Shown: positions 8,381 through 29,441 of the stretch, piece by piece
How the letters are laid out: the number at the start of each line of letters is the position of its first letter
Position numbering within the stretch: position 1 is the first letter of the stretch
Notes under the pieces: model-generated
Databases searched by the model: none
The model's input: only the letters and a program-made list of their open reading frames with translations
Told to the model about the DNA's origin: nothing
Source: Candidatus Saccharimonadota bacterium
Lineage (GTDB): Bacteria; Bacillota_I; Bacilli_A; Mycoplasmatales; Hepatoplasmataceae
Assembly (NCBI RefSeq): GCF_000582535.1
Contig: NZ_CP006932.1
Location: 240,001 to 272,000, forward strand
Direction of reading: 5' to 3'
DNA: 32,000 nt
Made by a program: the position numbers and the translations under genes

Positions 8381-8386
8381 ATTATA
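8381..8386 (-). promoter_or_regulatory. Putative -10 box (TATAAT) of SDR paralog 1
   Basis: TATAAT lies on the minus strand 23 nt upstream of the ATG. The same box at the same spacing, plus the GAAAGAGAGATTA SD block, recurs upstream of all four SDR paralogs. Confidence 0.4.
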
Positions 8387-9386: not shown

Positions 9387-10148
9387 TTAAAGATCATCAA
9401 AGTATTGATCTTCTAAATATAATATATTTTTTGTTGCATCTACAATACCAATATTTTTATCGCTTTTATATAACTCATAAATATATTTAGCTACTAGTTT
9501 TGGTTCTTTTTGATAATCTTTTCGTTTAATTTCACTTTCTTTTAATAATTTGGGATCAACTTTAGATTTTATAATTGATCTTTCGACAAATTCTGTTTTA
9601 GTAGATGAAGGAGCTAATACTTTCATTTTAAGTTTTGCTTTTTGATTTTTTAAAAGTTTTGCTGTTCCTTCACTAAACACAGAAACATAAAATTTACTAG
9701 CTGAATAAATAACTCCTCCTTTTCAAATTTTATAACCAGCAGTAGATGATATATTGATAATTTGTGAATCTTTATTTATATTATCTTTTATAAATAAAAT
9801 TGATAGATAAGTAAGTGAAGTAATATTTAAATCTATCATCATTTTAATTTTATGAAGATCTGAATCTCAAGGATCATTGCGATCACCAAATCCGGCATTA
9901 TTAATTAATATCTCCAATTGATGATCTTTTATTTTTTGATAAAATTTTAAAACATTATTAATATTAGTAAGATCATAAATATAAATTAACACTTTTACTT
10001 TATATTTATTTTCAATTTCTTTTTTTAAATTATTTAATAGTTCTTTTCTTCTTGCTACAATAATTATATTGTGTCCTTTTGAAGCAAAATAGATTGCAGT
10101 TTCTTTTCCTATTCCTGAACTTGCTCCTGTAATTACGGTATATTTCAT
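9387..10148 (-). CDS. Short-chain dehydrogenase/reductase, paralog 2 (253 aa)
   Basis: The N-terminus is MKYTVITGASSGIGK, with NNAGFG and YSASK downstream. Track ORFs 9867..10148 and 9387..9680 are in the same frame (468 nt apart) and join across in-frame TGA codons. Confidence 0.9.
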
Positions 10149-10170
10149 TTCTAATCTCTCGTTTTAAGTT

Positions 10171-10176
10171 ATTATA
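10171..10176 (-). promoter_or_regulatory. Putative -10 box of SDR paralog 2
   Basis: Minus-strand TATAAT lies 23 nt upstream of ATG 10148, conserved in position with the other SDR paralogs. Confidence 0.4.
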
Positions 10177-10341
10177 TTATCTTAATATAAAAAAGAAACA
10201 TTTGTTTCTCTTTTATTATTATTTTTTATTTATTGATTTATCTTTATTTTTACAATTACAATCTTTTTTATCTTGATATTTCACTTTATAATTACCTTTC
10301 TATTGAGTTTTTTATCTTATAAAATATTATATTAAATTTAA

Positions 10342-11106
10342 TTAATCAATTCAAAAAATATCATAATATCCATCCGACAGTTCTAATTTATTATTTTTAA
10401 TTATTCCAACGATTTTATCACTTTTATATAATTTATAGGTTTCATCTGCAAGATTTTCAGAAGTTAAAATTGCTTTACTTTTTCAATTTTTATATTTTTC
10501 AATTTGTTCTTTTTTAAGTTTTGTTTTTAATAAGGCTTGATTACTAAATTCACTTTTAGTAACTCCTGGAGCTAGAACTTTTACTTTTATTTTTTTATTT
10601 AATTTTCTTAATTGTTTTGCTACACTTTCTGTTCAAGCAGAAACAAATACTTTTGATGCTGAGTAATTTATAGATCATGCAAAAATATTATAACCAGCCC
10701 CTGAAGACACATTTATTAATTGAACATCATTATCTAAATTATCTCTTATAAACATAATTGAAAGTGTAGTAAGAGTTTTAATATTTAAATCAAGCATTTT
10801 TTTGATTTTATCAAGATCTGAATCTCATGCTAAATTTAAATCACCAAATCCGGCATTATTTATAAATAATTCAATATCATATTTTTTTACATCATTATAA
10901 AATTTTTCTACTTCTTGTTCTTTTGATAGATCAACTGTAAAGACAACAACATCTATTTTATATCTATTTTCTAATTCTTTTTTAATTTCATTCAATAAAT
11001 TTGTTCTTCTTGCTGCAATTATAAGATTATGTCTTTTGCTCGCAAATTTTTCAGCAAGTCCTTTTCCTATTCCTGAACTCGCTCCTGTAATTAATGTATA
11101 TTTCAT
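10342..11106 (-). CDS. Short-chain dehydrogenase/reductase, paralog 3 (254 aa)
   Basis: The N-terminus is MKYTLITGASSGIGK, with NNAGFG downstream. The frame continues through TGA 10825-10827. The C-terminus reads ...YKLYKSDKIVGIIKNNKLELSDGYYDIFWID, ending at TAA 10344-10342. Confidence 0.9.
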
Positions 11107-11129
11107 TCTAATCTCTCTTTCTTAATGTA

Positions 11130-11135
11130 ATTATA
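11130..11135 (-). promoter_or_regulatory. Putative -10 box of SDR paralog 3
   Basis: Minus-strand TATAAT lies 24 nt upstream of ATG 11106, between the upstream hairpin and the conserved SD block. Confidence 0.4.
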
Positions 11136-11142
11136 ATATTTA

Positions 11143-11182
11143 AATTTAAAAGAGAAAGATTTAAATCCTTCTCTTTTAAATT
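11143..11182 (-). terminator. Hairpin terminator downstream of SDR paralog 4
   Basis: An inverted repeat pairs aatttaaaagagaa (11143-11156) with ttctcttttaaatt (11169-11182) around a 12-nt loop. It starts 16 nt after the stop at 11198, and a T-rich tail follows on the minus strand. Confidence 0.5.
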
Positions 11183-11197
11183 AATTATTTTGTTTAC

Positions 11198-11962
11198 TTA
11201 AACTCAAAAAATATTATAACTTCCATCTGAAAGTTCTAATTTATTATCATTATTTATAATTCCTAATATCTTATCACTTTCATATAATTTATAAGCCTTA
11301 TTTGCAAGTTCTTCTGCTGTTATTGATATTTTTTGTGCTCAATCCTTAAATTCTTCGATTTTTTCATCTTTAAGTTTTGTTTTTGCAAGAGCTCTATTAC
11401 CAAATTCACTTTCTGTTGCTCCTGGAGCTAAAACTTTTACTTTTATTTTTTTGTTTAATTTTTTTAATTGTTTTGCTACACCTTCTGTTCAAGAAGCAAC
11501 AAAGATTTTTGAAGCTGAATAACTTATTGCTCCTGAAAAAACACCATATCCTGCAACTGAAGATACATTTATTAATTGAACATCTTTATCTAAATTATCT
11601 CTTATAAACATAATTGAAAGTGTAGTAAGAGTTTTAATATTTAAATCAAGCATTTTTTTGATTTTATCAAGATCTGAATCTCAAGGTAAATTCATATCAC
11701 CAAATCCAGCATTATTTATAAATAATTCAATATCATATTTTTTTACATCATTATAAAATTTTTCTACTTCTTGCTCTTTTGATAGATCAACTGTAAAGAC
11801 AACAACATCTATTTTATATCTATTTTCTAAGTTTTTTTTAATTTCATTTAACAAATTTGTTCTTCTTGCTACAATTATAAGATTATGACCTTTGTTTGCA
11901 AATTTTTCAGCAAGAGATTTTCCTATTCCTGAACTTGCTCCTGTAATTAATGTATATTTCAT
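11198..11962 (-). CDS. Short-chain dehydrogenase/reductase, paralog 4 (254 aa)
   Basis: The N-terminus is MKYTLITGASSGIGK, with NNAGFG downstream. It is very close to paralog 3. The frame continues through TGA 11681-11683 to TAA 11200-11198. Confidence 0.9.
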
Positions 11963-11985
11963 TCTAATCTCTCTTTCTTGAAATA

Positions 11986-11991
11986 ATTATA
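11986..11991 (-). promoter_or_regulatory. Putative -10 box of SDR paralog 4
   Basis: Minus-strand TATAAT lies 24 nt upstream of ATG 11962. Confidence 0.4.
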
Positions 11992-12014
11992 ATTAAATTT
12001 AATAAAATTATTGT

Positions 12015-12222
12015 TTATGATATTATTATATCTTCTATTTTTGTAACTATATTTTTATCATCATAAATTTCAATTGTATATGTTCCAATAATTAAATCAG
12101 CAAAATTCAATCCAATATTATCACCTTCATTTAAATTAATTTGTTGTATCTCTCACATGATTAAGAATAGCAGTTTCTTTTCCGTTGAAAGCAGGAATAT
12201 TTACATCAAATGTAATAGATTT
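12015..12222 (-). pseudogene. Promoterless, start-less, frameshifted relic of one SprB/Ig-like repeat domain
   Basis: The minus strand reads SITFDVNIPAFNGKETAILNH, then after a frameshift INLNEGDNIGLNFADLIIGTYTIEIYDDKNIVTKIEDIIIS*. This is homologous to the 94-aa units of 24513..27332. A TAA lies directly upstream and there is no start codon. Confidence 0.6.
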
Positions 12223-14065
12223 TTATCCTTTGATATATCAATTTGCAATATCTATATTTTAAATAAATATGGATATATTTTTTTTATTATATTAATTTTG
12301 GATTTTATTAAATATTACAAATTGCTTTATTTTTTCTATTGATATATTTTTTAGTATTCTAGTAAATAATTAAAATAGATATTAAACGATCCTCATATCT
12401 AACATTGATTAATAAAATCACAAAATTTAAATAATTCTTATTATTTGTTTAGTCATAATTAATTACAATATTTAAAATATTAAATGCGAAATTTAAATTA
12501 CTAAATAACCTTTAGATAACCTTTTAAAATAAAATTTATAATATAATTTTTTTAATTGATGTAATAATAATTTCTGCACTTAACGCAGCATCAATTATAT
12601 TAATTGTTTTATCAACATTAAAAGAGAAATAGCAAGCCCCAATTCCAACAAAATCATATCTTGTAGTCCCATCATATACAATATCTTTTGCATACATTAA
12701 TTGAGTATTACCAATATCTGCATAAGTACAATTAATCAATAAGAAATCTGCGTTACTATAATCATCCATATTTATTATTGTACCGCTTACTTGTGCATTT
12801 AAATCTATTGGTGCAGGAATTCCATTTACTCCTCACATTGTTGCTAAAAAATCACTCTCTCTTGCTTTTGTTACTGTACCGTTCAAAGTATCTGTGAAAG
12901 TTAATTCTCCAGAATAAGATACATTACTTCCGTGTTGTTTTTGTAATCAAGTATTAGTTACAATTAAATCACTTATTTCTCTGATAGGATAACCATATTG
13001 TGGTTTTACTGCTGTACCAGCACTTGTGTTAAAGTATCATTTAGAAATTATTAAATCATAATTAGTATAGTCTTCGTTTAACACAAATTTATCACCATAA
13101 CCAAATGCCCCGTTTTCTAAAATTTTAGTAATAGTAATATTATCAATTGCTTTAATTCAATTTAAACCTTTAACTGAATTACTTACACTTTCTCTTGTTG
13201 TGTCAAAAGTATTATCACTTGTTCTTTTTATAGCAACATAACATTCATCTCCTTGTGGATCGTTAGGGTTAAATGAATTTAAACAACCAGTAGTTCATTC
13301 GTTTAAATTAAAATCTGATCCAACAATAAATAAGTTTTGATAACATTGAATATTGTTTTCTGGTATTAAATTTCCCTTTGTAATCATTAATATATGATTA
13401 AAATCTTCTCCATCATTAACTGGAATATCATTACTGTTTGGGGGAATTAAAGAACCATCATCAGGTGTCACAATATCAATTATTTCTTCATCTCCACCAC
13501 CATCTTCAGATGAATCATAATCATTAATTATAAATGATGTATTATCAATCAATTCAGTATCACAATAAACTTCTATATTATAATATCCGGGAGGTAAATC
13601 AGTAAATGTTAATCCTGTATTTATTCCCTCGGATAAAGTAATTGGTTCTGTTCCACTTGCTGGATTTAATACAGCAATTGATGTTCCATTACAATCTGAT
13701 AAATAAACATCAAAGGAAACTGTACCATTTCCATCTTCAGTAGTTGGATCAGTAGGAACAATATTATCAATTATTGCTGATGGGAATGGATCTATTGAAC
13801 AATCTTTACAAGTAGATAAAGAATCAAGACTTGCTTTAATATCACCAATAGCATTATTTATAATATCACCTAAGTTATTTACTGCTGTATTTAAACCATC
13901 AATTTGATCTTGCAAACCATCAGTTAATCCAAGAAGTGTATTATCTCGAACAACTGTATCATTAGTACTTTCTCCATATAATTTTTCATCTGCTTGTGTA
14001 AAATCTCCAAAAGCTTCAGTAGATGTATTTCCCAAAACTGTATAAGTTACATGATCAGTATCAAC
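12197..14065. repeat. Segmental duplication copy A (about 1.87 kb, ~99% identical to 18636..20502)
   Basis: The two copies are offset by a constant 6437 nt, with one 2-nt poly-T length difference near 12270. I found about ten substitutions by eye. Identity drops sharply outside both ends. Confidence 0.85.
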
Positions 14066-14566
14066 CATATTATTATTAATTAAATCATCAATCGCTTCTT
14101 TATTAGTTTCATTTACTTCTTTTTGTGTTTTTTCACCTTCGGAATTATAATTTATTGTATTTATAGATAATATATCAATATTTCCTCCATTGCAGCCATC
14201 AATCATAATTACAATTAAATCAAGGCAATTAATTTATTGATTTGATTTATTTCTTTTTGTGTTGAATCGCCTTATAATATAGAATCCATTATACTAAAAG
14301 AAGGAGTATTTATTTTCCCATTAAGATAATTAATTTTCTTATTCATATTAATAATTCAGAACTAATTTCAGTAATATTTATTTTATTTTTCTTATTGACT
14401 TCTTTCTGCGTTTTATCATTTTTTAAAGTAGAATTAATTGTATTAATTAATAATGTAAAGTTTTTATTGACATATTTTCATTTACTTCTTATTGAAATTC
14501 TCATATTTCTATTGTTGGATTTATAGTTACTATATGTGCAAGATTAACATATCCTACTTGACTTTT
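12536..14566 (-). pseudogene. Decayed, internally deleted fibre-family paralog P1: ruined 5' part, intact 556-codon 3' ORF (12536..14206) with no family promoter or SD; candidate silent cassette
   Basis: 14207..14566 holds recognisable but stop-riddled family sequence, e.g. LAHIVTINPTIEIWEFQ*EVNENMSIKTL against SAHVQTVNPVAEGGGFQQEVNENITQSINSI, and TINSTLKNDKTQKEVNKKNK. The ORF from ATG 14206 continues through TGA 13295-13297 to TAA 12536. It is nearly identical to the 3' half of 18973..22818. The conserved ~150-nt leader seen upstream of the other paralogs is absent. Confidence 0.6.
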
Positions 14567-14632: not shown

Positions 14633-17600
14633 TTATAATTTTATTCCTCATAATTTCATAGTAAAACTAAAATTTTTGGTATAACTTCCATCAGGATTAA
14701 ATATAAAATAGCTTGAATCTGCTACAGAAGAAATATAATATCTTGTTATTCCATCTGCAATTATATTTTTAGCATAAATAAATAAACCACCTCAATAATT
14801 CTTTGATCTATCTGAAACAAATAATAATGAATAATCAGAAGTTATGAATTTAGTATTTGTTAATTCTTCAAAATTTTCTCAATTCATACCTCAAATCATA
14901 TTAAAAGCAAGTTTAGTATAACCATTATCTGCTTTAATATTAAGAGTAGTTCCACTAATTGTACATCATGATTCAAAAGAAGCATAAGCGAGAACAATTT
15001 CATTGTTATCAATATCTCCTGTTTTTACTGCAATATATTGTATATGTTCATCACTATCACCAAGATTTGCAGTTGATTTAGCAATTATAAAATCATAATT
15101 ATATAAATCTTCTTTTATTGATATACTATTTCCACTTTTAATACTTACTTCATTATCCAATAATTGTGTGATTGGTTGTTTAAGTCCCTTGATAAAATCT
15201 AAACCATCAATAACACCCCCAAGATTTCTTAATGTAAATGTATTATTTGATGTTACTTTTAATAATAAATTACTATCATCACTAGTAACATAAGTTAAAT
15301 AAATATTATATTCTGGACCATTTAATTCTAAATTAGTTCCAATCATCAATGAATTTCCTATTCCTTTTCCATCACTTAATGTTGTATTAGTAAATAATAA
15401 ATTATAGTCGTTTAAATTACCATTTGTTGTTCCGCCTTCTTTATCGGGTGTATCAAAATCTATTAAATCATCAAAACCATCATCTGTAATAATTGGTTCA
15501 GAAATTATAAATGATGTATCATCAATCAATTCAGTATCACAATAAACTTCTATATTATAATATCCGGGAGGTAAATTTGTAAACGTTAATCCTGTATTTA
15601 TTCCCTCGGATAAAGTAATTGGTTCTGTTCCACTTGCTGGATTTAATACAGCAGTTGATGTTCCATTACAATCTGATAAATCAACATCAAAGGAAACTGT
15701 ACCATTTCCATCTTCAGTAGTTGGATCAGTAGGAACAATATTATCAATTATTGCTGATGGGAATGGATCTATTGAACAATCTGTACAAGTAGATAAAGAA
15801 TCAAGACTTGCTTTAATATCACCAATAGCATTATTTATAATATCACCTAAGTTATTTACTGCTGTATTTAAACCATCAATTTGATCTTGCAGACCATCAG
15901 TTAATCCAAGAAGTGTATTATCTCGAACAACTGTATCATTAGTACTTTCTCCATATAATTTTTCATCTGCTTGTGTAAAATCTCCAAAAGCTTCAGTAGA
16001 TGTATTTCCCAAAACTGTATAAGTTACATGATCAGTATCAAGTACATCACTATTAATTAAATCATCAATTGCTTGCGTATTTGCATCAATTGCTTCTTTA
16101 TTAGCTTCATTTACTTCTTGTTGTGTTGTTCCACCTTCAGCAGTTGCATCAACTGTAGCAACATCTGAAGTATTTGGATCACTTAAATTATCAAGCTGAT
16201 CATTAATATCATCAATCGCTTCTTTATTAGCTTCATTTACTTCTTTTTGTGTAGATCCACCTTCAGTACTAGGACTATTAGTATTAATAACAGCGGTATC
16301 ACCTTCTACTGGAACACCATTATTAATAAGATCATCTACTTCATCATTTAAATTATCAATCGCTTCTTTATTAGCTTCATTTACTTCTTTTTGTGTAGAT
16401 CCACCTTCAGCAGCAGGATCTGCAGTGGGAACATCAGAAGTATCTCCATCAATTATATTATCTACTTCATTATTTAAATTATCAATCGCTATTTTATTAT
16501 TTTTATTTACAATTTCTTGTGTTGCTCCACCTTCAGCAGCAGAATTTGAAGTGGGAACATCAGAAGTATCTCCATTACGAATATCATCAACTTCATCATT
16601 TAAATTATCAATTGCTTCTTTATTAGCTTCATTTACTTCTTTTTGTGTAGAACCACCTTCAGTAGTAGGATTATTAGTATCAATAGTAGAAGTATCACCT
16701 GGTGTAACTCCATTATCAATAATATTTTCTATTTCTGTATTTAAAGTATCAACTTCATCATTTAAATTATCAATCGCTTCTTTATTATTTTTATTTACAA
16801 TTTCTTGTGTTGATCCACCTTCAGCACTAGAATCTTTAGTATCAATAGTAGAAGTATCATCTGATGGAACACCATTATTAATAAGATCATCTACTTCATC
16901 ATTTAAAATATTTATTTCTTTATTTAAAGTATCAAATTCATCATTTAAATTATCAATCGCTTCTTTATTATTTTTATTTACAATTTCTTGTGTTGATCCA
17001 CCTTCAGCACTAGAATCTTTAGTATCAATAGTAGAAGTATCATCTGATGGAACACCATTATTAATAAGATCATCTACTTCATCATTTAAAATATTTATTT
17101 CTTTATTTAAAGTATCAAATTCATCATTTAAATTATCAATCGCTTCTTTATTATTTTTATTTACAATTTCTTGTGTTGATCCACCTTCATTTGTGGAATC
17201 AGCAGTATTAATAGTTGAAGTTGTAATATCATCGCAATCGCAACCAGAAGAATCACAACCACATTCCATACAATCAATCTTTTCATTAATATCAGAAATT
17301 TCAGAATTAACTTTAATAATTTCAGAATCTAAAGTAATAATACTTTTTTTATTAGCTTCATTTACTTCTTTTTGATTTGGCCCACCTTCAAAAAAACTAT
17401 CAACAGTAGATACATTTTCTGTATTGGTTTTTAAATCATTATCATCAATCTTAGAACTAATATCATTAATTAAAGTATTTATATTATCAATGTCTTTTTT
17501 ATTAACTTGATTTATTTCTTTTTGATTTATTCCACCTTCTAAAGTAGTATCGACCGCTTTAATAGAATAAGTAGTATTAGCTTCTCCAAAAGATTCCATT

Positions 17601-18424: not shown

Positions 18425-18661
18425 TTATTTATTTTTTAATAAAATTACTGGTTCTGATATTATGATATCTTCTCTTTTTGTGATTAAATTTTTATCATCA
18501 TAAATCTCAATTTTATATGGTCCAACCATTAGATTATCAAATACTAATTCAATATTATCCTCTTCATTTAAATCAATTGGTAATTTATTTCCTGCAGGAT
18601 TAAAAACAGCAGTTCCTTTTCCTTTGAAAGCAGAAATATTTACATCAAATGTAATAGATTT
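18425..18661 (-). pseudogene. Start-less relic of one SprB/Ig-like repeat domain (78 codons, open frame)
   Basis: The minus strand reads SITFDVNISAFKGKGTAVFNPAGNKLPIDLNEEDNIELVFDNLMVGPYKIEIYDDKNLITKREDIIISEPVILLKNK*. TAA 18664-18662 lies directly upstream and there is no start codon or SD. It is homologous to 12015..12222 and to the 282-bp units. Confidence 0.6.
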
Positions 18662-20502
18662 TTATCCTTTGATATATCAATTTGCAATATCTATATTTTA
18701 AATAAATATGGATATATTTTTTATTATATTAATTTTGGATTTTATTAAATATTACAAATTGCTTTATTTTTTCTATTGATATATTTTTTAGTATTCTAGT
18801 AAATAATTAAAATAGATATTAAATGATCCTCATATCTAACATTAATTAATAAAATCACAAAATTTAAATAATTCTTATTATTTGTTTAGTCATAATTAAT
18901 TACAATATTTAAAATATTAAATGCGAAATTTAAATTACTAAATAACCTTTAGATAACCTTTTAAAATAAAATTTATAATATAATTTTTTTAATTGATGTA
19001 ATAATAATTTCTGCACTTAACGCAGCATCAATTATATTAATTGTTTTATCAACATTAAAAGAGAAATAGCAAGCCCCAATTCCAACAAAATCATATCTTG
19101 TAGTCCCATCATATACAATATCTTTTGCATACATTAATTGAGTATTACCAATATCTGCATAAGTACAATTAATCAATAAGAAATCTGCGTTACTGTAATC
19201 ATCCATATTTATTATTGTACCGCTTACTTGTGCATTTAAATCTATTGGTGCAGGAATTCCATTTACTCCTCATATTGTTGCTAAAAAATCACTCGCTCTT
19301 GCTTTTGTTACTGTACCGTTCAAAGTATCTGTGAAAGTTAATTCTCCAGAATAAGATACATTACTTCCGTGTTGTTTTTGTAATCAAGTATTAGTTACAA
19401 TTAAATCACTTATTTCTCTGATAGGATAACCATATTGTGGTTTTACTGCTGTACCAGCACTTGTGTTAAAGTATCATTTAGAAATTATTAAATCATAATT
19501 AGTATAGTCTTCGTTTAACACAAATTTATCACCATAACCAAATGCCCCGTTTTCTAAAATTTTAGTAATAGTAATATTATCAATTGCTTTAATTCAATTT
19601 AAACCTTTAACTGAATTACTTACACTTTCTCTTGTTGTGTCAAAAGTATTATCACTTGTTCTTTTTATAGCAACATAACATTCATCTCCTTGTGGATCGT
19701 TAGGGTTAAATGAATTTAAACAACCAGTAGTTCATTCGTTTAAATTAAAATCTGATCCAACAATAAATAAGTTTTGATAACATTGAATATTGTTTTCTGG
19801 TATTAAATTTCCCTTTGTAATCATTAATATATGATTAAAATCTTCTCCATCATTAACTGGAATATCATTACTGTTTGGGGGAATTAAAGAACCATCATCA
19901 GGTGTCACAATATCAATTATTTCTTCATCTCCACCACCATCTTCAGATGAATCATAATCATTAATTATAAATGATGTATTATCAATCAATTCAGTATCAC
20001 AATAAACTTCTATATTATAATATCCGGGAGGTAAATCAGTAAATGTTAATCCTGTATTTATTCCCTCGGATAAAGTAATTGGTTCTGTTCCACTTGCTGG
20101 ATTTAATACAGCAGTTGATGTTCCATTACAATCTGATAAATCAACATCAAAGGAAACTGTACCATTTCCATCTTCAGTAGTTGGATCAGTAGGAACAATA
20201 TTATCAATTATTGCTGATGGGAATGGATCTATTGAACAATCTGTACAAGTAGATAAAGAATCAAGACTTGCTTTAATATCACCAATAGCATTATTTATAA
20301 TATCACCTAAGTTATTTACTGCTGTATTTAAACCATCAATTTGATCTTGCAGACCATCAGTTAATCCAAGAAGTGTATTATCTCGAACAACTGTATCATT
20401 AGTACTTTCTCCATATAATTTTTCATCTGCTTGTGTAAAATCTCCAAAAGCTTCAGTAGATGTATTTCCCAAAACTGTATAAGTTACATGATCAGTATCA
20501 AG
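18636..20502. repeat. Segmental duplication copy B (partner of 12197..14065)
   Basis: See copy A. It covers the relic's 5' edge, about 310 nt of non-coding DNA and the 3' ~1.5 kb of P3. Confidence 0.85.
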
Positions 20503-22818
20503 TACATCACTATTAATTAAATCATCAATTGCTTGCGTATTTGCATCAATTGCTTCTTTATTAGCTTCATTTACTTCTTGTTGTGTTGTTCCACCTTCAG
20601 CAGTTGCATCAACTGTAGCAACATCTGAAGTATTTGGATCACTTAAATTATCAAGCTGATCATTAATATCATCAATCGCTTCTTTATTAGCTTCATTTAC
20701 TTCTTTTTGTGTAGATCCACCTTCAGTACTAGGACTATTAGTATTAATAACAGCGGTATCACCTTCTACTGGAACACCATTATTAATAAGATCATCTACT
20801 TCATCATTTAAATTATCAATCGCTTCTTTATTAGCTTCATTTACTTCTTTTTGTGTAGATCCACCTTCAGTACTAGGACTATTAGTATTAATAACAGCGG
20901 TATCACCTTCTACTGGAACACCATTATTAATAAGATCATCTACTTCATCATTTAAATTATCAATTGCTTCTTTATTAGCTTCATTTACTTCTTTTTGTGT
21001 AGATCCACCTTCAGTAGCAGGATCTGCAGTGGGAACATCAGAAGTATCTCCATTACGAATATCATCAACTTCATCATTTAAATTATCAATCGCTATTTTA
21101 TTATTTTTATTTACAATTTCTTGTGTTGCTCCACCTTCAGCAGCAGAATTTGAAGTGGGAACATCAGAAGTATCTCCATTATGAATATCATCAATTTCAT
21201 CATTTAAATTATCAATTGCTTCTTTATTAGCTTCATTTACTTCTTTTTGTGTAGATCCACCTTCAGTAGTAGGATTATTAGTATCAATAGTAGAAGTATC
21301 ACCTGGTGTAACTCCATTATCAATAATATTTTCTATTTCTGTATTTAAAGTATCAACTTCATCATTTAAATTATCAATTGCTTCTTTATTATTTTTATTT
21401 ACAATTTCTTGTGTTGATCCACCTTCAGCAGTAGGACTATTAGTATCAATAGTAGAAGTATCACCTAGTGTAACTCCATTATCAATAATATTTTCTATTT
21501 CTGTATTTAAAGTATCAACTTCATCATTTAAATTATCAATCGCTTCTTTATTATTTTTATTTACAATTTCTTGTGTTGATCCACCTTCAGCACTAGAATC
21601 TTTAGTATCAATAGTAGAAGTATCACCTGATGGAACACCATTATTAATAAGATCATCTACTTCATCATTTAAAATATTTATTTCTGTATTTAAAGTATCA
21701 AATTCATCATTTAAAGTATCAATCGCTTCTTTATTATTTTTATTTACAATTTCTTGTGTTGATCCACCTTCATTTGTAGAATCAGCAGTATTAATAGTTG
21801 CAGTTGTAATATCATCGCAATCGCAACCAGAAGAGTCACAACCACATTCCATACAATCAATCTTTTCATTAATATCAGAAATTTCAGAATTAACTTTAAT
21901 AATTTCTGAATCTAAGGTAATAATACTTTTTTTATTAGCTTCATTTACTTCTTTTTGATTTGGCCCACCTTCAAAAAAACTATCAACAGTAGATACATTT
22001 TCTGTATTGGTTTTTAAATCATTATCATCAATCTTAGAACTAATATCATTAATTAAAGTATTTATATTATCGATATCTTTTTTATTAACTTGATTTATTT
22101 CTTTTTGATTTATTCCACCTTCTAAAGTAGTATCGACCGCTTTAATAGAATAAGTAGTATTAGCTTCACCAAAAGATTCCATTTTATCATTAATATCAGA
22201 AATATCTGAATTTAGTGAATCAAAATTAACTTTATTTTTTACATTAATTTCTTGTTGTGTTGATCCATTCTCTAAAGAAGAATTATTTGCACTAACTTTT
22301 GAAGTATTTATATCAAAATCTAAATTATCAATTTTATCATCAATTATAATAATTGAATCATTTAAATCATCTATGTTTTGTTTATTTTTTTCATTTACTT
22401 GCTTTTGTGTTGTTCCGCCTTCAGAAGTAGAATTAACTGTTTCAATAGAAGAAGTAATAGTTTGTATTAAAGTATTACCATTAATAATATCACTAAATTC
22501 ATCATTTAAATTATCAATGTTTTGTTTATTTTTTTCATTTACTTGTTGTTGTGTTGTTCCACCTTCAGAAGTAGAATTGATAGTATTAATAGATGATGTA
22601 ATAGTTTTTATTTTAGTACTACCACTTACAATAGAATTAATACTTTGTGTAATATTTTCATTTACTTCTTGTTGAAATCCTCCACCTTCAGCAACAGGAT
22701 TTACTGTTTGTACATGAGCAGAATCAGTAATTGATGCTGTAACTTTTTCTTCTTGTTCTACAAAATCACTATTATCAGATTCTTTATCTTGAAAATTTAA
22801 TTCATTTTCCTTTATCAT
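18973..22818 (-). CDS. Fibre-family protein P3 (1281 aa): same layout as P2 with 15 EGG units and a different C-terminal module
   Basis: Track ORFs 19732..22818 and 18973..19206 are in frame (528 nt between codon tops). I translated the intervening stretch with TGA=Trp and found it open (WTTGCLNSFNPNDPQGDECYVAIKR...TMWGVNGIPAPIDLNAQVSGTIINMDDYSNADF...). The N-terminus is MIKENELNFQDKESDNSDFVEQEEKVTASITDSAHV. Confidence 0.85.
20701..20988. repeat. Intragenic tandem duplication, 2 x 144 bp (48-aa unit TEGGSTQKEVNEANKEAIDNLNDEVDDLINNGVPVEGDTAVINTNSPS)
   Basis: The anchor ttctttttgtgtagatccacc occurs at 20701 and 20845. P2 carries this unit only once. Confidence 0.8.
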
Positions 22819-23633: not shown

Positions 23634-26600
23634 TTAAATTATAATTCCTTTCACTCCTAATAGTTCAAGATGTCCTAAACCGCCACCACTAGTTCAAGTT
23701 AAAACATTTCCAGTAATTGTAAAGTGTTCTTGCTGGTAATTAGAATAAGAATGATTTGTTATACCATCAGCAACAATATCACTAACTTTAATAACTCAAT
23801 CACCAACAGCAAAATTGCTTCCTTCAATTTTAAATAATAATAAATCATAAGAAGTGTAATCATTTAAAGTGAAAGTATCAGAAGTTTGAGATATCACAAG
23901 ATTATCTATTGATGTAAAGTTAAAACCATAAATCATTGTTATGTAACTACCTTCACCTATTCCTGTTGAAACTTCTTGGTTTGAAAATCTTCAACCATTA
24001 AGAGCAGTATCAGCAGCATTTTTGGCAACATAAATATAGTTTTGCTCTGGATCTGTTGTTTGTTCTCATAAAGTATAACTAAAATTATTTCTTGTATTAT
24101 CTCATCATTTTTGAACAATCATATTAAATTGTGTAATGTCTTCTAATCAAGTAAAATTATCATTATTTTCATAAATACCTTCTGTAATTAAAGGTGTTAG
24201 CCCAACATTAATTCCTTTTAAATAATATATTCCAGTAAAATCACCTATAATATCTAAATTAAAATTAGTAGGATCAGTAAATATTAATTTTTGAATCTCA
24301 TTATTACTTGTAATTCCGCTTTGATTTGAATCATTAATATCTATTTCTTTACCAATAAACAAACCATTTCCCACATAATTAGGATGTTGATTTTTACTCA
24401 AAATAATATCATAATTTAAATAACTATCTAATATTTCTCCACTTGTTTTACTATTAGCATCATCATCCTCAGGTGTTAATGGAATAAAATCATTACCACC
24501 AATATTAGGTTCAGAAACAACTATATCTGCCTCTGAACTAATTAATTCCTCTCCATCATAAATTTCAATTACATATGTTCCAGCAATTAAATTATCAAAG
24601 ATCAATCCTGTATTTGCTCCATCAACTAAGCTAATTGGACTTGTTCCAGTAGCAGGATTTAAAACTGCAGTTGCTAAATCAACAAAGTTAGCAATTGTAA
24701 CATCAAATCCAATTGAACCATCACTACCACCATTTATAGTTACATCAGTTGGAATAACATTTGAAACTGTTGCCTCTGGATCTGGGAGAGGTTCATTAAT
24801 CACTATATCTGCCTCTGAACTAATTAAAGTTTCTCCATCATAAATTTCAATTACATATGTTCCAGCAATTAAATTATCAAAACTCAAATCAGCATTTACT
24901 CCATCAACTAAGTTAATTGGACTTGTTCCAGTAGCAGGATTTAAAATAGCAGTTGCTAAATCAACAAAGTTAGCAATTGTAACATCAAATCCAATTGAAC
25001 CATCACTACCACCATTTATAGTTACATCAGTTGGAATAACATTTGAAACTGTTGCCTCTGGATCTGGGAGAGGTTCATTAATCACTATATCTGCCTCTGA
25101 ACTAATTAAAGTTTCTCCATCATAAATTTCAATTGTATATGTTCCAGCAATTAAATTATCAAAACTTAAATCAGCATTTGCTCCATCAACTAAGCTAATT
25201 GGACTTGTTCCAGTAGCAGGATTTAAAACTGCAGTTGCTAAATCAACAAAGTTAGCAATTGTAACATCAAATCCAATTGAACCATCACTACCACCATTTA
25301 TAGTTACATCAGTTGGAATAACATTTGAAACTGTTGCCTCTGGATCTGGGAGAGGTTCAGAAACAACAATATCTGCCTCTGAACTAATTAAAGTTTCTCC
25401 ATCATAAATTTCAATTGTATATGTTCCAGCAATTAAATTATCAAAACTTAAATCAGCATTTGCTCCATCAACTAAGCTAATTGGACTTGTTCCAGTAGCA
25501 GGATTTAAAATAGCAGTTGCTAAATCAACAAAGTTAGCAATTGTAACATCAAATCCAATTGAACCATCACTACCACCATTTATAGTTACATCAGTTGGAA
25601 TAACATTTGAAACTGTTGCCTCTGGATCTGGGAGAGGTTCAGAAACAACAATATCTGCCTCTGAACTAATTAAAGTTTCTCCATCATAAATTTCAATTGT
25701 ATATGTTCCAGCAATTAAATTATCAAAACTTAAATCAGCATTTGCTCCATCAACTAAGCTAATTGGACTTGTTCCAGTAGCAGGATTTAAAACTGCAGTT
25801 GCTAAATCAACAAAGTTAGCAATTGTAACATCAAATCCAATTGAACCATCACTACCACCATTTACAGTTACATCAGTTGGAATAACATTTGAAACTGTTG
25901 CCTCTGGATCTGGAAGAGGTTCATTAATCACTATATCTGCCTCTGAACTAATTAAAGTTTCTCCATCATAAATTTCAATTGTATATGTTCCAGCAATTAA
26001 ATTATCAAAACTTAAATCAGCATTTGCTCCATCAACTAAGCTAATTGGACTTGTTCCAGTAGCAGGATTTAAAATAGCAGTTGCTAAATCAACAAAGTTA
26101 GCAATTGTAACATCAAATCCAATTGAACCATCACTACCACCATTTACAGTTACATCAGTTGGAATAACATTTGAAACTGTTGCCTCTGGATCTGGAAGAG
26201 GTTCATTAATCACTATATCTGCCTCTGAACTAATTAAAGTTTCTCCATCATAAATTTCAATTGTATATGTTCCAGCAATTAAATTATCAAAACTTAAATC
26301 AGCATTTGCTCCATCAACTAAGCTAATTGGACTTGTTCCAGTAGCAGGATTTAAAATAGCAGTTGCTAAATCAACAAAGTTAGCAATTGTAACATCAAAT
26401 CCAATTGAACCATCACTACCACCATTTACAGTTACATCAATTGGAACTACATTTGAAACTGTTGCCTCTGGATCTGGGAGAGGTTCATTAATCACTATAT
26501 CTGCCTCTGAACTAATTAAAGTTTCTCCATCATAAATTTCAATTACATATGTTCCAGCAATTAAATTATCAAAACTCAAATCAGCATTTACTCCATCAAC

Positions 26601-29441
26601 TAAGTTAATTGGACTTGTTCCAGTAGCAGGATTTAAAATAGCAGTTGCTAAATCAACAAAGTTAGCAATTGTAACATCAAATCCAATTGAACCATCACTA
26701 CCACCATTTATAGTTACATCAGTTGGAATAACATTTGAAACTGTTGCCTCTGGATCTGGGAGAGGTTCATTAATCACTATATCTGCCTCTGAACTAATTA
26801 AAGTTTCTCCATCATAAATTTCAATTACATATGTTCCAGCAATTAAATTATCAAAACTCAAATCAGCATTTACTCCATCAACTAAGTTAATTGGACTTGT
26901 TCCAGCAGCAGGATTTAAAATAGCAGTTGCTGAATCAACAAAGTTAGCAATTGTAACATCAAATCCAATTGAACCATCACTACCACCATTTACAGTTACA
27001 TCAATTGGAATAACATTTGAAACTGTTGCCTCTGGATCTGGGAGAGGTTCAGAAACAACAATATCTGCCTCTGAACTAATTAAAGTTTCTCCATCATAAA
27101 TTTCAATTGTATATGTTCCAGCAATTAAATTATCAAAACTCAAACCAGCATTTTCTCCATCAACTAAAGTAATTTCATCTATTATTGCTGTAGGATTTAA
27201 TCCTATTACATCTGAATTTGAATTTAAAACTGCTTTTGCTGTATTCATAAAGTTAGCAATTGTAACATCAAATACAATTGAACCATCATTACCACCATTT
27301 ACAGTTACATCAGTTGTAATAACATTTGAAAATATTACTTCTTGATCTGGAGTTAAAGGGCATCCAGTACAAATAGATATTGAATTAAGGCTTAATAAAA
27401 TATTAGAAACAATTTTATTTAAATCATCTATTGCTTGGGTATTAGTACCAATTGCTTGTGTATTAGCATTAATCGCAATTTTATTAGCTTCATTTACTTC
27501 TTGTTGTGTTGCCCCACCTTCAGTATTAGAATCAACTGTAGCAATATCTGAAGTAACTGGATTATTTAAATCATCAATTGCTTGCGTATTTGCATCAATT
27601 GCTTGCGTATTTGCATCAATTGCAATTTTATTAGCTCATTTACTTCTTGTATGTGTTGCTCCCCCTTCAGTATTAGAATCAACTGTAGTAATATCTGAAG
27701 TAACTGGATCACTTAAATCATCAATTGCTTGCGTATTTGCATCAATTGCTTGCGTATTTGCATCAATTGCAATTTTATTAGTTTCATTTACTTCTTGTTG
27801 TGTTGCTCCCCCTTCAGTATTAGAATCAACTGTAGTAATATCTGAAGTAACTGGATCACTTAAATCATCAATTGCTTGCGTATTTGCATCAATTGCTTGC
27901 GTATTTGCATCAATTGCAATTTTATTAGTTTCATTTACTTCTTGTTGTGTTGCTCCCCCTTCAGTATTAGAATCAACTGTAGTAATATCTGAAGTAACTG
28001 GATCACTTAAATTATCTATTGCTTGGGTATTAGCATCAATTGCTTGAGTATTAGCATCAATTGCTTTTTTATTAGCTTCATTTACTTCTTTTTGTGTAGA
28101 ACCACCTTCAGTAATTGAATTAGTAGTAGTAATAGTTGAAGTATTTCCTCCTGGCACACCATTATTTATAATATCACTAATTTCATCACTTAAATTATCA
28201 ATTGCTACTTTATTACTTTTATTTACAATTTCTTGTGTTGTTCCACCTTCAGTCGTAGAATTTACAGTATTAATAGTTGAAGTTGTAATATCATCGCAAT
28301 CGCAACCAGAAGAATCACAACCACATTCCATACAATCAATCTTTTCATTAATATCAGAAATTTCAGAATTAACTTTAATAATTTCAGAATCTAAAGTAAT
28401 AATACTTTTTTTATTAGCTTCATTTACTTCTTTTTGATTTGGCCCACCTTCAAAAAAACTATCAACAGTAGATACATTTCCTGTATTGGTTTTTAAATCA
28501 TTATCATCAATCTTAGAACTAATGTCACTAATTAAGGTATTTATACTATCAATATCTTTTTTATTAACTTGATTTATTTCTTTTTGATTTATTCCGCCTT
28601 CTAAAGTAGTATCGACCGCTTTAATAGAATAAGTGGTATTAGCTTCTCCAAAAGATTCCATTTTATCATTAATATCAGAAATATCTGAATTTAGTGAATC
28701 AAAATTAACTTTATTTTTTATATTAATATCTTTTTGCGTTGATCCACCTTCTAAAGAAGAACTAGTTGCATTAACTTTTGAAGTATTTATATCAAAATCT
28801 AAATTATCAATTTTATCATCAATTACAACAATTGAATTATTTAAATTATCAATGTTTTGTTTATTTTTTTCATTTACTTGCTTTTGTGTTGTTCCGCCTT
28901 CAGAAGTAGAATTAATTGTTTCAATAGAAGAAGTAACAGTTTGTATTAAAGTATTACCATTAACAATATCATTAAATTCATCATTTAAATTATCAATGTT
29001 TTGTTTATTTTTTTCATTTACTTGCTTTTGTGTTGTTCCGCCTTCAGAAGTAGAATTAATTGTTTCAATAGAAGAAGTAACAGTTTGTATTAAAGTATTA
29101 CCATTAACAATATTATTAAATTCATCATTTAAATTATCAATCGCTTCTTTATTTTTTTGATTTACTTGTTGTTGTGTTGTTCCACCTTCAGAAGCAGAGT
29201 TAATAGTATTAATATATGATGTAATAGTTTTTATTTCAGTATTACCACTTAAAATAGAATTAATACTTTGTGTAATATTTTCGTTTACTTCTTGTTGAAA
29301 TCCCCCACCTTCAGCAACAGGATTTACTGTTTGTACATGAGCAGAGTCAGTAATTGATGCTGTAATTTTTTCTTTTTCTTCTGAAAAATTACTTTTATCA
29401 GATTCATTTTCTTGAAAATTTAATTCATTTCCCTTTTCCAT
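23634..29441 (-). CDS. Fibre-family protein P4 (1935 aa): 13 EGG units, Cys cluster, CxxC hinge, 10 tandem SprB/Ig-like domains, third type of C-terminal module
   Basis: Track ORFs 27636..29441 and 24147..27248 are in the same frame (2193 nt apart). I translated 27635..27249 and 24146..23634 codon by codon and both are open with TGA=Trp, ending at TAA 23636-23634 (...LTWTSGGGLGHLELLGVKGIII*). The N-terminus is MEKGNELNFQENESDKSNFSEEKEKITASITDSAHV. Confidence 0.8.
24513..27332. repeat. Coding tandem array, 10 x 282 bp (94-aa SprB/Ig-like domain units); nine near-identical copies and one diverged
   Basis: The anchor gcctctgaac recurs at 24811, 25093 and onward with an exact 282-nt period. The unit is EPLPDPEATVSNVIPTDVT(V/I)NGGSDGSIGFDVTIANFVDLATA(I/V)LNPATGTSPI(N/S)LVDG(V/A)NADLSFDNLIAGTY(V/T)IEIYDGETLISSEADIV(IN/VS). 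Confidence 0.9.
27480..28075. repeat. Coding tandem array, about 4 x 147 bp (49-aa unit with an internal 21-bp/7-aa ANTQAID doublet)
   Basis: The anchor cccccttcag occurs at 27661, 27808 and 27955, with a variant at 27514. The unit is KIAIDANTQAIDANTQAIDDLSDPVTSDITTVDSNTEGGATQQEVNETN. Confidence 0.85.

What the first reader, a model, noticed from the sequence alone, without database searches (positions are those of the whole stretch)
14633..15503. Three different C-terminal tip modules joined at the same breakpoint after the last Ig-like domain
P2 and P3 are co-linear down to ...YCDTELID(D/N)TSFII and then diverge abruptly, at P2 nt 15503/15504 and P3 nt 19963/19964. P2 continues SEPIITDDGFDDLIDFDTPDKEGG... 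(~290 aa, 14633..15503). P3 continues NDYDSSEDGGGDEEIIDIV... (~330 aa, 18973..19963). P4 continues after its tenth domain with EPNIGGNDFIPLTPEDDD... (~292 aa, 23634..24512). The three tips share only faint landmarks: an acidic linker, NYD(L/F/I)I, and (A/Y)DG(I/T)T(R/N). This suggests one fold under strong diversification, as expected for a ligand- or receptor-binding end.
Basis: partly seen in the sequence, partly recalled or inferred. Interest (0 to 1): 0.7.

Follow-up and report, generated by a model that had tools for sequence, protein, structure and literature searches.

The report
Swappable heads on Hepatoplasma fibre proteins
Four neighbouring genes of a woodlouse-gut, mycoplasma-like bacterium encode long fibre proteins with near-identical trunks but three very different versions of one ~300-residue end domain; a small phage-like contig carries the same domain on its tail-fibre gene, so it is probably an exchangeable binding head.

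Summary
The window uses genetic code 4 (TGA=Trp) and belongs to the 'Candidatus Hepatoplasma crinochetorum' group. P2 and P3 are ~100% identical in DNA down to 15503/19963, then fall to background. P4 carries a third tip after its tenth Ig-like domain. A 5'-truncated fourth copy, P1, carries the P3 tip again.

The three tips are not unrelated. They are 22-27% identical, with alignment z-scores of 10-13.5 and hhalign E about 1e-5. They form one all-beta domain family with no Pfam, PHROG, NCBIfam or PDB sequence relative.

More family members confirm the boundary:
- The T4-type tip sits on at least five or six different trunks.
- One of these trunks is the tail-appendage-position gene of a phi29-like phage contig.
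- Three H. scabrum paralogues lack a tip. Two of them stop exactly at this boundary.
- A decayed T3-like tip lies just downstream of a T4-type tip in strain Ps.

Within the T4 type, selection is purifying (dN/dS 0.09-0.29). The diversity therefore consists of discrete exchangeable types, not ongoing hypervariation.

A binding function is inferred, not shown. The fold is only weakly matched (BFVD TM 0.43). P1-P4 have no signal peptide. The gene cluster itself was published in 2024 as candidate adhesins. The tip modularity and the phage link appear to be new.

The parts
14636..15502 (-). Tip T2: the 289-aa C-terminal head of P2 (stop codon at 14633-14635). This is the module named in the finding.
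   Evidence: Code-4 translation. DNA identity to P3 collapses at 15503/15502. Homologous to T3 and T4. No Pfam, PHROG, NCBIfam or PDB sequence hit.
15503..15769 (-). Single Ig-like domain of P2 ('YCD' type). It ends ...YCDTELIDDTSFII and is preceded by a C-x-x-C motif.
   Evidence: Sub-threshold Y_Y_Y hit. The AF2 fragment model shows 7 strands at pLDDT about 57-66. Ig-like folds are reported for orthologues in PMC10928387.
15770..18202 (-). P2 trunk: conserved N-terminus, about 14 stalk repeats (T..EGGxTQxEVNxxNKxxID), a Cys cluster (17234-17272) and a unique neck (15770-16039).
   Evidence: The stalk gives only coiled-coil-type sub-threshold PDB hits.
18976..19962 (-). Tip T3: the 329-aa head of P3 (P3 CDS 18973-22818).
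19963..20229 (-). Ig-like domain of P3. It is 97-100% identical in DNA to that of P2 in 60-nt windows.
23637..24512 (-). Tip T4: the 292-aa head of P4 (P4 CDS 23634-29441).
   Evidence: Relatives at about 87-88% and about 61% identity sit on other trunks. An AF2 model of the type was obtained.
24513..27350 (-). Ten tandem Ig-like domains of P4 ('YDGE' type, 94 aa / 282 nt period).
   Evidence: Sub-threshold Y_Y_Y, fn3_3 and SdrD_B hits.
12536..14206 (-). P1: a 5'-truncated paralogue with a degenerate stalk repeat, neck, Ig domain (13526-13792) and a second copy of tip T3 (12539-13525). It lacks the conserved upstream region of P2-P4.
   Evidence: 11998-14140 matches 18435-20598 at 96%. There are 6 differences in 1287 nt, 5 of them nonsynonymous. 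Stop codons lie upstream.
12015..12158 (-). Relic of an Ig-like domain (...GTYTIEIYDDKNIVTKIEDIIIS) downstream of the P1 tip. A duplicate relic lies at 18425-18529 downstream of the P3 tip.
   Evidence: BLASTP to Ig domains of L001/L002 proteins.
14310..14504 (-). Relic of a stalk repeat (..NDKTQKEVNKKNKINI..) between the P2 stop and the P1 start.

Best explanation
Segment 14633-15503 encodes the distal head domain of P2. P2 is one of four tandem, phage-tail-fibre-like proteins in a 'Candidatus Hepatoplasma crinochetorum'-group chromosome (genetic code 4).

Architecture: a short conserved N-terminus, then 13-15 stalk repeats with a Cys cluster, a neck, a CxxC motif, 1 or 10 Ig-like domains, a short acidic linker, and a head of about 290-330 aa.

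The three heads (T2, T3, T4) are deeply diverged members of one previously undescribed all-beta domain family. The head is an autonomous, exchangeable module. It is always joined, or the protein simply ends, at the C-terminal edge of the last Ig-like domain.

The most likely mechanism is homologous recombination or gene conversion seeded in the conserved trunk. The trunk keeps P2, P3 and P1 about 100% identical right up to that edge, and the head is replaced as a cassette. The same head family and trunk elements are shared with small phage-like elements of the same host lineage.

The most likely function is the ligand- or receptor-binding end of a fibre, with head type determining what is bound.

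Shown here: the breakpoint, the homology of the heads, the shared boundary, heads on different trunks, purifying selection within a type, and a phi29-like ATPase on the contig that carries a family member.

Inferred: binding function, identity of the ligand, how a protein without a signal peptide reaches the outside, and the exact recombination mechanism.
For: Breakpoint and code 4.

Homology of the heads: 22-27% identity, z 10-13.5 against shuffles, hhalign E 5e-5 and 1.7e-5.

The head as a module:
- T4-type heads follow ten YDGE-type Ig domains in P4.
- They follow a different ~390-aa N-terminal domain plus 4 Ig domains on circular contig L001 (P0001).
- They follow yet another N-terminal region on L003 (P0002).
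- They follow a stalk plus one YCD-type Ig domain in P0003 on L002.
- They follow a stalk plus two Ig domains in chromosomal P0007 of strain Ps.

Tipless members: two H. scabrum paralogues stop just after the last Ig domain (...IINEPLLLY*...VEPPLIS*). A third stops before the Ig domain.

Separate histories of head and trunk: for L002 versus L004, head dS is 0.30 and dN 0.09, against Ig dS 0.81 and dN 0.56. P4 versus L001/L003 behaves likewise.

Displaced head: a stop-riddled T3-like head fragment (37% identity over 78 aa, E 1e-8) lies directly downstream of the T4-type head of P0007.

Phage link: L002 is 11.4 kb with all genes on one strand. Its 381-aa protein aligns with the phi29 gp16 encapsidation ATPase (5hd9_A, E 0.009) across Walker A, Walker B and the NPYFLFFN region. 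P0003 lies where phi29 has its appendage gene and shares an N-terminal segment with the neighbouring fibre-like ORF.

Structure: the T4-type head model is all-beta with pTM 0.66. The best structural neighbours are caudoviral proteins (DUF7483 protein, E 6e-4, TM 0.43) and several tail-fibre entries.

Purifying selection within the type: dN/dS 0.09-0.29, so the heads are functional.
Against: - P1-P4 have no signal peptide, lipobox or transmembrane segment (maximum KD19 1.5; sequences). They also lack the N-terminal segment that phage P0003 shares with its neighbour. How they reach a surface or a particle is unexplained.
- No phage structural gene is in the window. The flanks are SDR paralogues and RCC1-like surface proteins.
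- No significant fold match was found in the PDB (best E 0.06). The BFVD matches are weak. The model is only moderately confident, and the T2 model failed.
- The phage assignment of L002 rests on one borderline sequence match plus gene order. PHROGs, Pfam and INPHARED gave nothing.
- T2 and T3 types have no intact relative anywhere outside the window; the only trace is the decayed T3-like fragment in strain Ps. Modularity is therefore demonstrated mainly for T4.
- No shared sequence lies immediately downstream of the three heads, so the 3' crossover site is undefined.
Confidence: 0.6

Rival explanations
1. [quoted passage not shown] The heads would bind different structures on the isopod hepatopancreas epithelium, and the phage-like elements merely borrowed host modules. 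This differs from the best explanation in who uses the fibre and for what, not in the modular anatomy.
For: - Tandem clusters of such ORFs exist in all Hepatoplasmataceae genomes and were interpreted as adhesins (PMC10928387).
- The locus is syntenic with strain Ps at 85% nt identity, and H. scabrum has a cluster at a similar genome position.
- A 0.6-Mb genome with 94% coding density keeps about 17 kb of intact ORFs (PMC3942034).
- The flanks encode surface proteins with signal peptides and C-terminal anchors.
- The symbiont is extracellular and attaches to the epithelium (PMC4536667).
Against: - No signal peptide, lipoprotein box or membrane anchor in P1-P4.
- Three H. scabrum members lack any head.
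- The whole architecture (stalk repeat, CxxC, Ig domain, head) recurs in a gene at the tail-appendage position of a phi29-like contig.
Confidence: 0.25
2. The chromosomal fibres are anti-phage decoys or receptor-masking proteins. By carrying the same head types as the phages' fibres, they would occupy or compete for the phage receptor.
For: The head of chromosomal P0007 is close to the head of phage-contig protein P0003 (tip dN 0.09; 0.73-1.00 identity in most 15-aa windows), while the adjoining Ig domains are only about half identical. P0007 lies next to defence-island-type genes: an AAA_15/AAA_21 ATPase and a large helicase.
Against: There is no export signal and no PADLOC-type evidence was sought or found. 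The window cluster is not in a defence context. This reading is speculative.
Confidence: 0.06
3. The system is a polymorphic-toxin-like one. A conserved delivery trunk would carry variable C-terminal toxin domains, with P1 as an 'orphan' C-terminal cassette.
For: A sharp breakpoint between an identical trunk and a divergent C-terminus, plus a 5'-truncated extra copy carrying a C-terminal module and its downstream DNA. This resembles CdiA, Rhs or MafB loci (known from the literature, recalled from memory).
Against: - The C-termini are homologous to one another, all-beta and carried by a phage tail-fibre-position gene.
- No small ORF that could be an immunity gene follows any of them. The intergenic DNA holds only domain relics.
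- No toxin family is hit in Pfam or NCBIfam.
- There is no demarcation motif of the known systems.
Confidence: 0.03
4. The proteins are intracellular cytoskeletal components of the stalk of this stalk-forming mollicute, comparable to the large acidic repeat proteins of Mycoplasma terminal organelles (recalled from memory). The heads would be interaction domains inside the cell.
For: No export signal, large acidic repeat proteins, and coiled-coil-like stalk hits. The organism forms stalks.
Against: A homologue sits in a phage structural gene block. Ig-like domains of the same family sit at the C-terminus of the protein in the capsid or head-fibre position of L002. Discrete head types and cassette displacement are hard to explain for a housekeeping cytoskeleton.
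Confidence: 0.05

Closest known systems
Large repetitive tandem ORFs with Ig-like folds of Hepatoplasmataceae (HCTKY_2320, HPPSJP_2240; Kawato et al. 2024, PMC10928387)
   Same: These are the same gene family and almost certainly the orthologous cluster. P0006 = HPPSJP_2250 and its 2107-aa neighbour share the N-terminus, stalk repeats and Ig-like domains with P2-P4. The paper describes 3-4 tandem giant ORFs with Ig-like beta-sandwich repeats and proposes adhesion.
   Different: In the sections read and the terms searched (phage, tail fibre), the paper does not describe C-terminal head modules, their three types, the common junction, tipless variants, or any relation to phages. The H. scabrum members examined here have no head at all.
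Modular phage receptor-binding proteins and tail fibres with exchangeable C-terminal heads. Examples recalled from memory: lactococcal phage RBPs with swapped head domains, T-even gp37/gp38 tips, phi29 gp12 appendages.
   Same: A conserved fibrous trunk with a sharply delimited, highly divergent C-terminal domain, exchange at a domain boundary, and a homologue (P0003) at the appendage position of a phi29-like gene order. The best structural neighbours of the head are caudoviral proteins.
   Different: P1-P4 are chromosomal, in a syntenic non-prophage locus, and lack the N-terminal segment of the phage copy. No sequence or significant structural similarity to any solved RBP head was found. There was no PHROG hit.
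Polymorphic toxin loci with orphan C-terminal cassettes (CdiA-CT, Rhs-CT; from memory)
   Same: An abrupt switch from conserved to variable sequence near the C-terminus, and a truncated extra copy carrying a C-terminal module.
   Different: The variable parts are mutually homologous. There are no immunity ORFs and no toxin domains.
DUF7483-containing proteins of uncultured Caudovirales (BFVD A0A6J5QL19)
   Same: This is the best structural neighbour of the T4-type head model: Foldseek E 6e-4, probability 1.0, TMq 0.43 over 328 columns.
   Different: TM is below 0.5, sequence identity is 13%, and there is no Pfam hit of any head even at E 10. The function of DUF7483 is unknown and no paper mentions it.

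Membership tests
Phage tail fibre / receptor-binding protein | Encoded within a phage structural gene block | tested here: not met
   In the window, no phage genes flank P1-P4; the neighbours are SDR paralogues and RCC1-like surface proteins. The feature is met only for relative P0003 on L002, which has a phi29 gp16-like ATPase and phi29-like gene order.
Phage tail fibre / receptor-binding protein | N-terminal domain that anchors the fibre to the virion | tested here: not met
   P0003 has a ~100-aa N-terminal segment (..TDNEYIVYYNINN..) shared with the adjacent fibre-like ORF of L002. P2-P4 start directly with the conserved ..TDSAHVQTVNPV.EGGGFQQEVNEN.. segment instead.
Phage tail fibre / receptor-binding protein | C-terminal receptor-binding domain with a fold seen in known RBPs | tested here: inconclusive
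Phage tail fibre / receptor-binding protein | Trimeric fibrous assembly | not testable with these tools
   Only monomer AF2 is available. The stalk gives coiled-coil-type sub-threshold hits only.
Ig-fold bacterial surface adhesins | Tandem Ig-like beta-sandwich domains | tested here: met
   Ten 94-aa repeats in P4 and one each in P1-P3. Sub-threshold Y_Y_Y, fn3_3 and SdrD_B hits. A 7-strand AF2 segment. ColabFold Ig-like folds are reported for orthologues.
Ig-fold bacterial surface adhesins | Export signal and surface anchoring (signal peptide, lipobox, or transmembrane or wall anchor) | tested here: not met
   The N-termini are hydrophilic and acidic. The maximum 19-residue Kyte-Doolittle mean is 1.0-1.5, so there is no TM segment.
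Polymorphic toxin systems (CdiA, Rhs, MafB type) | Unrelated C-terminal toxin domains, each followed by a cognate immunity gene | tested here: not met
   The C-termini are homologous to each other. No ORF of 25 aa or more other than domain relics lies downstream. There are no toxin family hits.
Mollicute phase- or antigen-variable surface protein systems (vsa, vsp, vlhA type; from memory) | Lipoprotein signal plus site-specific inversion or a pseudogene reservoir for gene conversion | tested here: inconclusive
   There is no lipoprotein signal. All four genes are on one strand, so inversion is unlikely. P1 is a promoter-less truncated copy that could act as a donor, and the trunk shows gene-conversion-like identity. 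No recombinase is in the window.
Pfam Y_Y_Y (PF07495), the public annotation apparently attached to P4 | Score at or above the Pfam gathering threshold | tested here: not met
   18.3 and 24.4 bits against a cut-off of 26.6. The match covers about 20 residues of an Ig-like domain and lies outside the tip.

The most novel reading that the evidence does not exclude
A streamlined gut symbiont and its previously unknown small phages draw on one common pool of exchangeable head domains. On this reading, either both use the heads to stick to the same isopod epithelial surface (a phage 'adherence to host mucosa' strategy built from the bacterium's own adhesin parts), or the bacterium deploys phage-type heads to mask its receptors. 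L001 and L002 would be the first Hepatoplasma phages, in a genus reported to have no mobile elements.
Probability: 0.2. Interest if true: 0.8.

Novelty: new variant of a known kind. Interest (0 to 1): 0.55.

Why it matters
Hepatoplasma is an uncultured, genome-reduced symbiont. How it attaches to its host and what its phages are remain unknown. Its genome paper reported no detectable phage.

This finding turns the published 'giant repetitive ORFs' into a defined modular system, with a trunk, an Ig spacer and one of several interchangeable heads. It identifies a new all-beta head domain family with almost no relatives among about 15 billion proteins. It also links the family to phi29-like phage contigs.

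That gives concrete reagents and hypotheses: recombinant heads for binding assays, and the contigs as candidate phages. These could show what determines host or phage specificity in isopod-mollicute symbiosis.

Tried and rejected
1. Reading the region under table 11. The ORFs stop at TGA inside every tip. Table 4 was used instead.
2. Family libraries on tips and trunk (Pfam, PHROGs, NCBIfam). Nothing reached threshold.
3. PDB sequence search with the tip profile gave 0 hits at E 10.
4. Locus scans with an Ig+tip alignment in IMG/VR, GTDB representative genomes and JGI metagenomes. None was confirmed. A second GTDB scan with the N-terminal alignment found only strain Ps and H. scabrum.
5. INPHARED tblastn with P0003 and the L002 ATPase gave no match.
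6. An internal triplication of the tip, suggested by the recurring DYxNYDLLI motif. It was not significant in pairwise segment tests or in hhalign self-alignment (E 0.009, probability 4.5%). It remains a hint only.
7. Handing window tips to the structure and representative-search tools. The workaround was to use P0001-P0003 and TGA-free window fragments.
8. AF2 of the TGA-free part of P2 (Ig domain plus 178 aa of T2). pLDDT was 38, so the tip part is unusable.
10. Annotation of L001/L002 genes by PHROGs, Pfam and PDB. Only the gp16-like ATPase of L002 emerged. The idea that the L001 390-aa N-terminal domain is a capsid protein is unsupported.
11. Immunity-gene-like ORFs and conserved 3' recombination sites downstream of the tips. 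None was found.
12. The promoter/terminator scan was uninformative in this AT-rich DNA.
13. A search for further copies of the L002 ATPase found only itself.
Full report
**1. What the sequence is**

The window has 17-34% G+C in 1-kb windows, mostly 18-31%. Under table 4 (TGA=Trp) they are continuous:
- P1: 12536-14206
- P2: 14633-18202
- P3: 18973-22818
- P4: 23634-29441

All are on the minus strand. Every Trp codon in the tips, in the four SDR paralogues and in the RCC1-like gene is TGA, and none is TGG.

A full-length P2 search returned proteins named 'Candidatus Hepatoplasma scabrum' HPPSJP_2250 (P0006) and 'Ca. H. crinochetorum' (P0007). The start of contig CWGI01000001.1 (strain Ps) is collinear with window 28551-32000 at 85% nucleotide identity. 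The window is therefore a H. crinochetorum-group chromosome, but not strain Ps.

The source name attached to P0007 contains '263634:269441 Reverse, Y_Y_Y domain protein'. That range equals the P4 CDS plus 240,000. I infer that the window is positions 240,001-272,000 of a published genome in which P4 carries that label.

**2. The observation**

In a three-way DNA alignment, P2 and P3 are 97-100% identical in every 60-nt window from about 16300/20760 down to 15503/19963. From there to the end of the genes and beyond, identity falls to 0.32-0.63, which is background for this composition. The self-BLAST HSP ends exactly at 15503/19963. The last common codons are TCA TTT ATA ATT (SFII). P2 continues TCT GAA CCA (SEP...) and P3 continues AAT GAT TAT (NDY...).

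The tips are 289, 329 and 292 aa long. P4 has ten Ig-like domains.

One element was missed. P1 is a 5'-truncated duplicate of the last 2.1 kb of P3:
- It includes the neck, the Ig domain, the same T3 tip and about 540 nt downstream (11998-14140 versus 18435-20598, 96% identity).
- There are 6 differences in 1287 nt across the tip and Ig region.
- It lacks the ~190-nt upstream region shared by P2, P3 and P4.

**3. Are the tips related?**

Yes.
- Pairwise BLASTP gives 22-26% identity over 183-230 residues.
- A global alignment has conserved landmarks: TP(D/E), I(W/Y)G.N, DY(S/T)..LL and D.(I/V).DG.T.
- Smith-Waterman scores are 10.0-13.5 SD above 500 composition-preserving shuffles, and no shuffle approaches them.
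- A profile of five T4-type tips aligns to T2 (E 5e-5, 219 columns) and to T3 (E 1.7e-5, 168 columns).

A motif of the form DY-x-NYD-hydrophobic3 recurs two or three times per tip at a spacing of about 100 residues, and it repeatedly misled MAFFT on fragments. Segment-by-segment tests and hhalign self-alignment do not support a true internal triplication.

**4. How rare the family is**

A profile of the three tips found one protein among 5.8 billion clusters (P0001). An exhaustive phmmer search of 1.84 billion representatives with a T4-type tip found P0002, P0003, a 46-aa fragment and one spurious hit. No hit came from Pfam, PHROGs, NCBIfam or PDB sequences. Nothing was found in IMG/VR, GTDB representatives or JGI metagenomes using the Ig+tip patterns. 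T2 and T3 have no intact relatives outside the window.

**5. The junction in other family members**

Trunks that carry a T4-type tip:
- Ten YDGE-type Ig domains in P4.
- A different ~390-aa N-terminal domain plus four Ig domains on L001.
- Another, unrelated N-terminal region on L003.
- Stalk repeats plus one YCD-type Ig domain in P0003 on L002.
- A stalk plus two Ig domains in chromosomal P0007 of strain Ps.

In every case similarity rises within a few residues after the last beta-strand of the Ig domain (...SFII / ...DIVV / ...SFTI). For P0003 versus P0007, identity in 15-aa windows is 0.13-0.67 before the junction, 0.33 across the junction window itself, and 0.73-1.00 in most windows after it, with one window at 0.47.

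Nei-Gojobori estimates confirm that tip and Ig domain have different histories:

| Comparison | Tip dS | Tip dN | Ig dS | Ig dN |
|---|---|---|---|---|
| L002 vs L004 | 0.30 | 0.09 | 0.81 | 0.56 |
| P4 vs L001 / L003 | 0.38-0.41 | – | 0.58-0.78 | – |

Three tandem H. scabrum paralogues have no tip. Two end 4-7 residues after the last Ig domain, and one ends at the CxxC motif before it.

In strain Ps, a decayed T3-like tip fragment (37% identity over 78 aa, E 1e-8, interrupted by stop codons) lies immediately downstream of the intact T4-type tip of P0007. This is what a displaced cassette would look like. The refutation condition 'the breakpoint is not shared once more members are aligned' is not met.

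**6. Selection**

Close T4-type pairs give dN/dS of 0.09 (L001 vs L003), 0.16-0.19 (P4 vs L001/L003) and 0.29 (L002 vs L004). In each case this is lower than in the adjacent Ig domain (0.36-0.69). The heads are constrained, functional domains. The diversity lies between types. The five nonsynonymous and one synonymous differences between P1 and P3 are too few to interpret.

**7. The phage link**

L002 (11.4 kb, 23.6% G+C, code 4) has all its genes on one strand. Its last large ORF aligns with the N-terminal ATPase domain of the phi29 gp16 encapsidation protein. This was the only PDB hit (E 0.009, residues 48-221 versus 16-184). It includes Walker A (GEYDDGKS / GARGIGKS), Walker B (MVYDEA / IVFDEF) and the ...NPYFLFFN... 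region.

The gene order parallels phi29 (phi29 order recalled from memory):
- an ORF ending in an Ig-like domain
- a 349-aa ORF
- a 194-aa ORF
- a 463-aa fibre-like ORF
- P0003
- small membrane proteins
- an 810-aa ORF
- the ATPase

P0003 shares its first ~60 residues with the preceding fibre-like ORF.

L001 is a circular 10.2-kb element with a 30-bp terminal overlap. It shares only the Ig+tip part with L002. Its nature is unresolved. PHROGs, Pfam and INPHARED gave no support for either contig. The phage assignment of L002 is therefore reasonable but not proven.

**8. Structure**

The tools refuse window proteins containing TGA-encoded Trp. I therefore modelled the T4-type tip of P0002, using an alignment of three database tips plus TGA-free window fragments. 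The result was pLDDT 64 and pTM 0.66, with about 17 strands and essentially no helices.

Foldseek against the PDB gave nothing significant (best E 0.06). Six of the top 15 hits are phage baseplate, fibre or RBP chains. Against BFVD, the best hits are a DUF7483 protein of an uncultured caudovirus (E 6e-4, TMq 0.43) and A0A516L318 (E 3e-3, TMq 0.41), followed by several tail-fibre entries at E 0.02-0.06.

The single-sequence model of P2 'Ig + first 178 aa of T2' failed for the tip (pLDDT about 30) and gave a 7-strand sandwich for the Ig domain. The lectin, jelly-roll and tail-fibre-tip question therefore remains open.

**9. Context and published knowledge**

Kawato et al. [quoted passage not shown] They propose host adhesion and do not discuss C-terminal heads or phages. 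Leclercq et al. 2014 found no phage or other mobile element in strain Av but did find a CRISPR array.

P1-P4 have no signal peptide or membrane segment. This sits uneasily with a classical adhesin and is unexplained by any hypothesis here. The intergenic DNA contains relics of family domains:
- Ig-like relics at 12015-12158 and 18425-18529
- a stalk-repeat relic at 14310-14504

It contains no candidate immunity gene.

**10. Conclusion**

The finding is real. Its core interpretation, one domain family at a fixed junction that probably acts as a binding end, is the best available. Two corrections apply: the heads are discrete, conserved, exchangeable types rather than continuously diversifying sequences, and their binding role is inferred. 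The gene cluster is already published. The head family, its modular exchange and its sharing with phi29-like contigs are new details.

Noticed in passing
whole window (e.g. 14636-15790, 5884-7278, 7597-11986): Genetic code 4. All Trp codons examined are TGA and none is TGG. Table-11 tools truncate every gene here, and several session tools refuse the true protein sequences.
   Followed up: yes
window 11998-14206: P1 is a 5'-truncated, promoter-less duplicate of the 3' 2.1 kb of P3, covering neck, Ig domain, T3 tip and 540 nt downstream. It has 6 differences in 1287 nt, 5 of them nonsynonymous. It could be a pseudogene or a silent donor cassette.
   Followed up: partly
window 12015-12158, 18425-18529, 14310-14504 (all minus strand): Decayed fragments of family domains lie in the 'intergenic' DNA. 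There are two copies of an Ig-like domain remnant downstream of the T3 tips and one stalk-repeat remnant upstream of P1. These are traces of earlier rearrangements.
   Followed up: partly
window 17234-17272 (P2), 21817-21855 (P3), 28296-28334 (P4): A Cys cluster (CMECGCDSSGCDC) sits in the middle of the stalk. It is conserved in all three full-length paralogues and expanded in H. scabrum (..CLDCGCGCDDGCGCDDGCDDGCG..). A second CxxC lies just before the Ig domain. These may be metal or disulfide nodes of a fibre.
   Followed up: no
window 27615-27665 (P4): One stalk repeat reads GGATHTRSKWANK instead of GGATQQEVNETNK. The cause is a +1 insertion and a compensating -1 deletion about 20 nt apart, that is, a compensated frameshift or a sequencing error.
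   Followed up: partly
window 1-1843 and 3865-5707; 5884-7278; 29801-32000: The flanks encode several RCC1-like beta-propeller surface proteins with signal peptides and C-terminal membrane anchors. Two of them share a 95% identical 1.8-kb 3' part. This is the same family discussed as RCC1-like in PMC10928387.
   Followed up: no
window 7597-11986: Four tandem short-chain dehydrogenase paralogues (70-86% nucleotide identity) lie next to the fibre cluster. This is unusual redundancy for a 0.6-Mb genome.
   Followed up: no
L004 12282-12509 (strain Ps, CWGI01000001.1): A stop-riddled T3-like tip fragment lies directly after the intact T4-type tip of P0007. P0007 also sits beside an AAA_15/AAA_21 ATPase and a large helicase, a defence-island-like setting.
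   Followed up: partly
L001 5575-5590; L003 ~760-775: In both contigs the tip-bearing gene is split by a frameshift at a homopolymer (T5 in L001, A8 in L003) inside the first Ig-like domain. This could be phase variation, programmed frameshifting or assembly error.
   Followed up: partly
L001 (whole contig, 10,249 bp): A 30-bp direct terminal overlap shows a circular ~10.2-kb element (23% G+C, code 4). Apart from the Ig+tip module it shares no detectable protein with L002. It may be a second, unrelated phage or a plasmid of the same host lineage.
   Followed up: partly
L002 2-616 and L001 4409-5587: The protein in the capsid or head-fibre position of the phi29-like contig ends in an Ig-like domain of the same family as the fibre Ig domains, reminiscent of the Ig-like domain on the phi29 capsid protein (from memory).
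   Followed up: no
window 16023-17570(+), 20483-22153(+), 27100-28632(+): Long stop-free antisense frames (510-556 codons) lie opposite the repeat regions. They mirror the repeats and look like composition artefacts, not genes.
   Followed up: no
tips: T2 aa 29, 132, 223; T3 aa 41, 152, 255; T4 aa 32, 217 (from tip start): A recurring DY-x-(N)YD-hydrophobic3 motif at about 100-residue spacing hints at an ancient internal repeat in the head. It was not statistically supported.
   Followed up: yes
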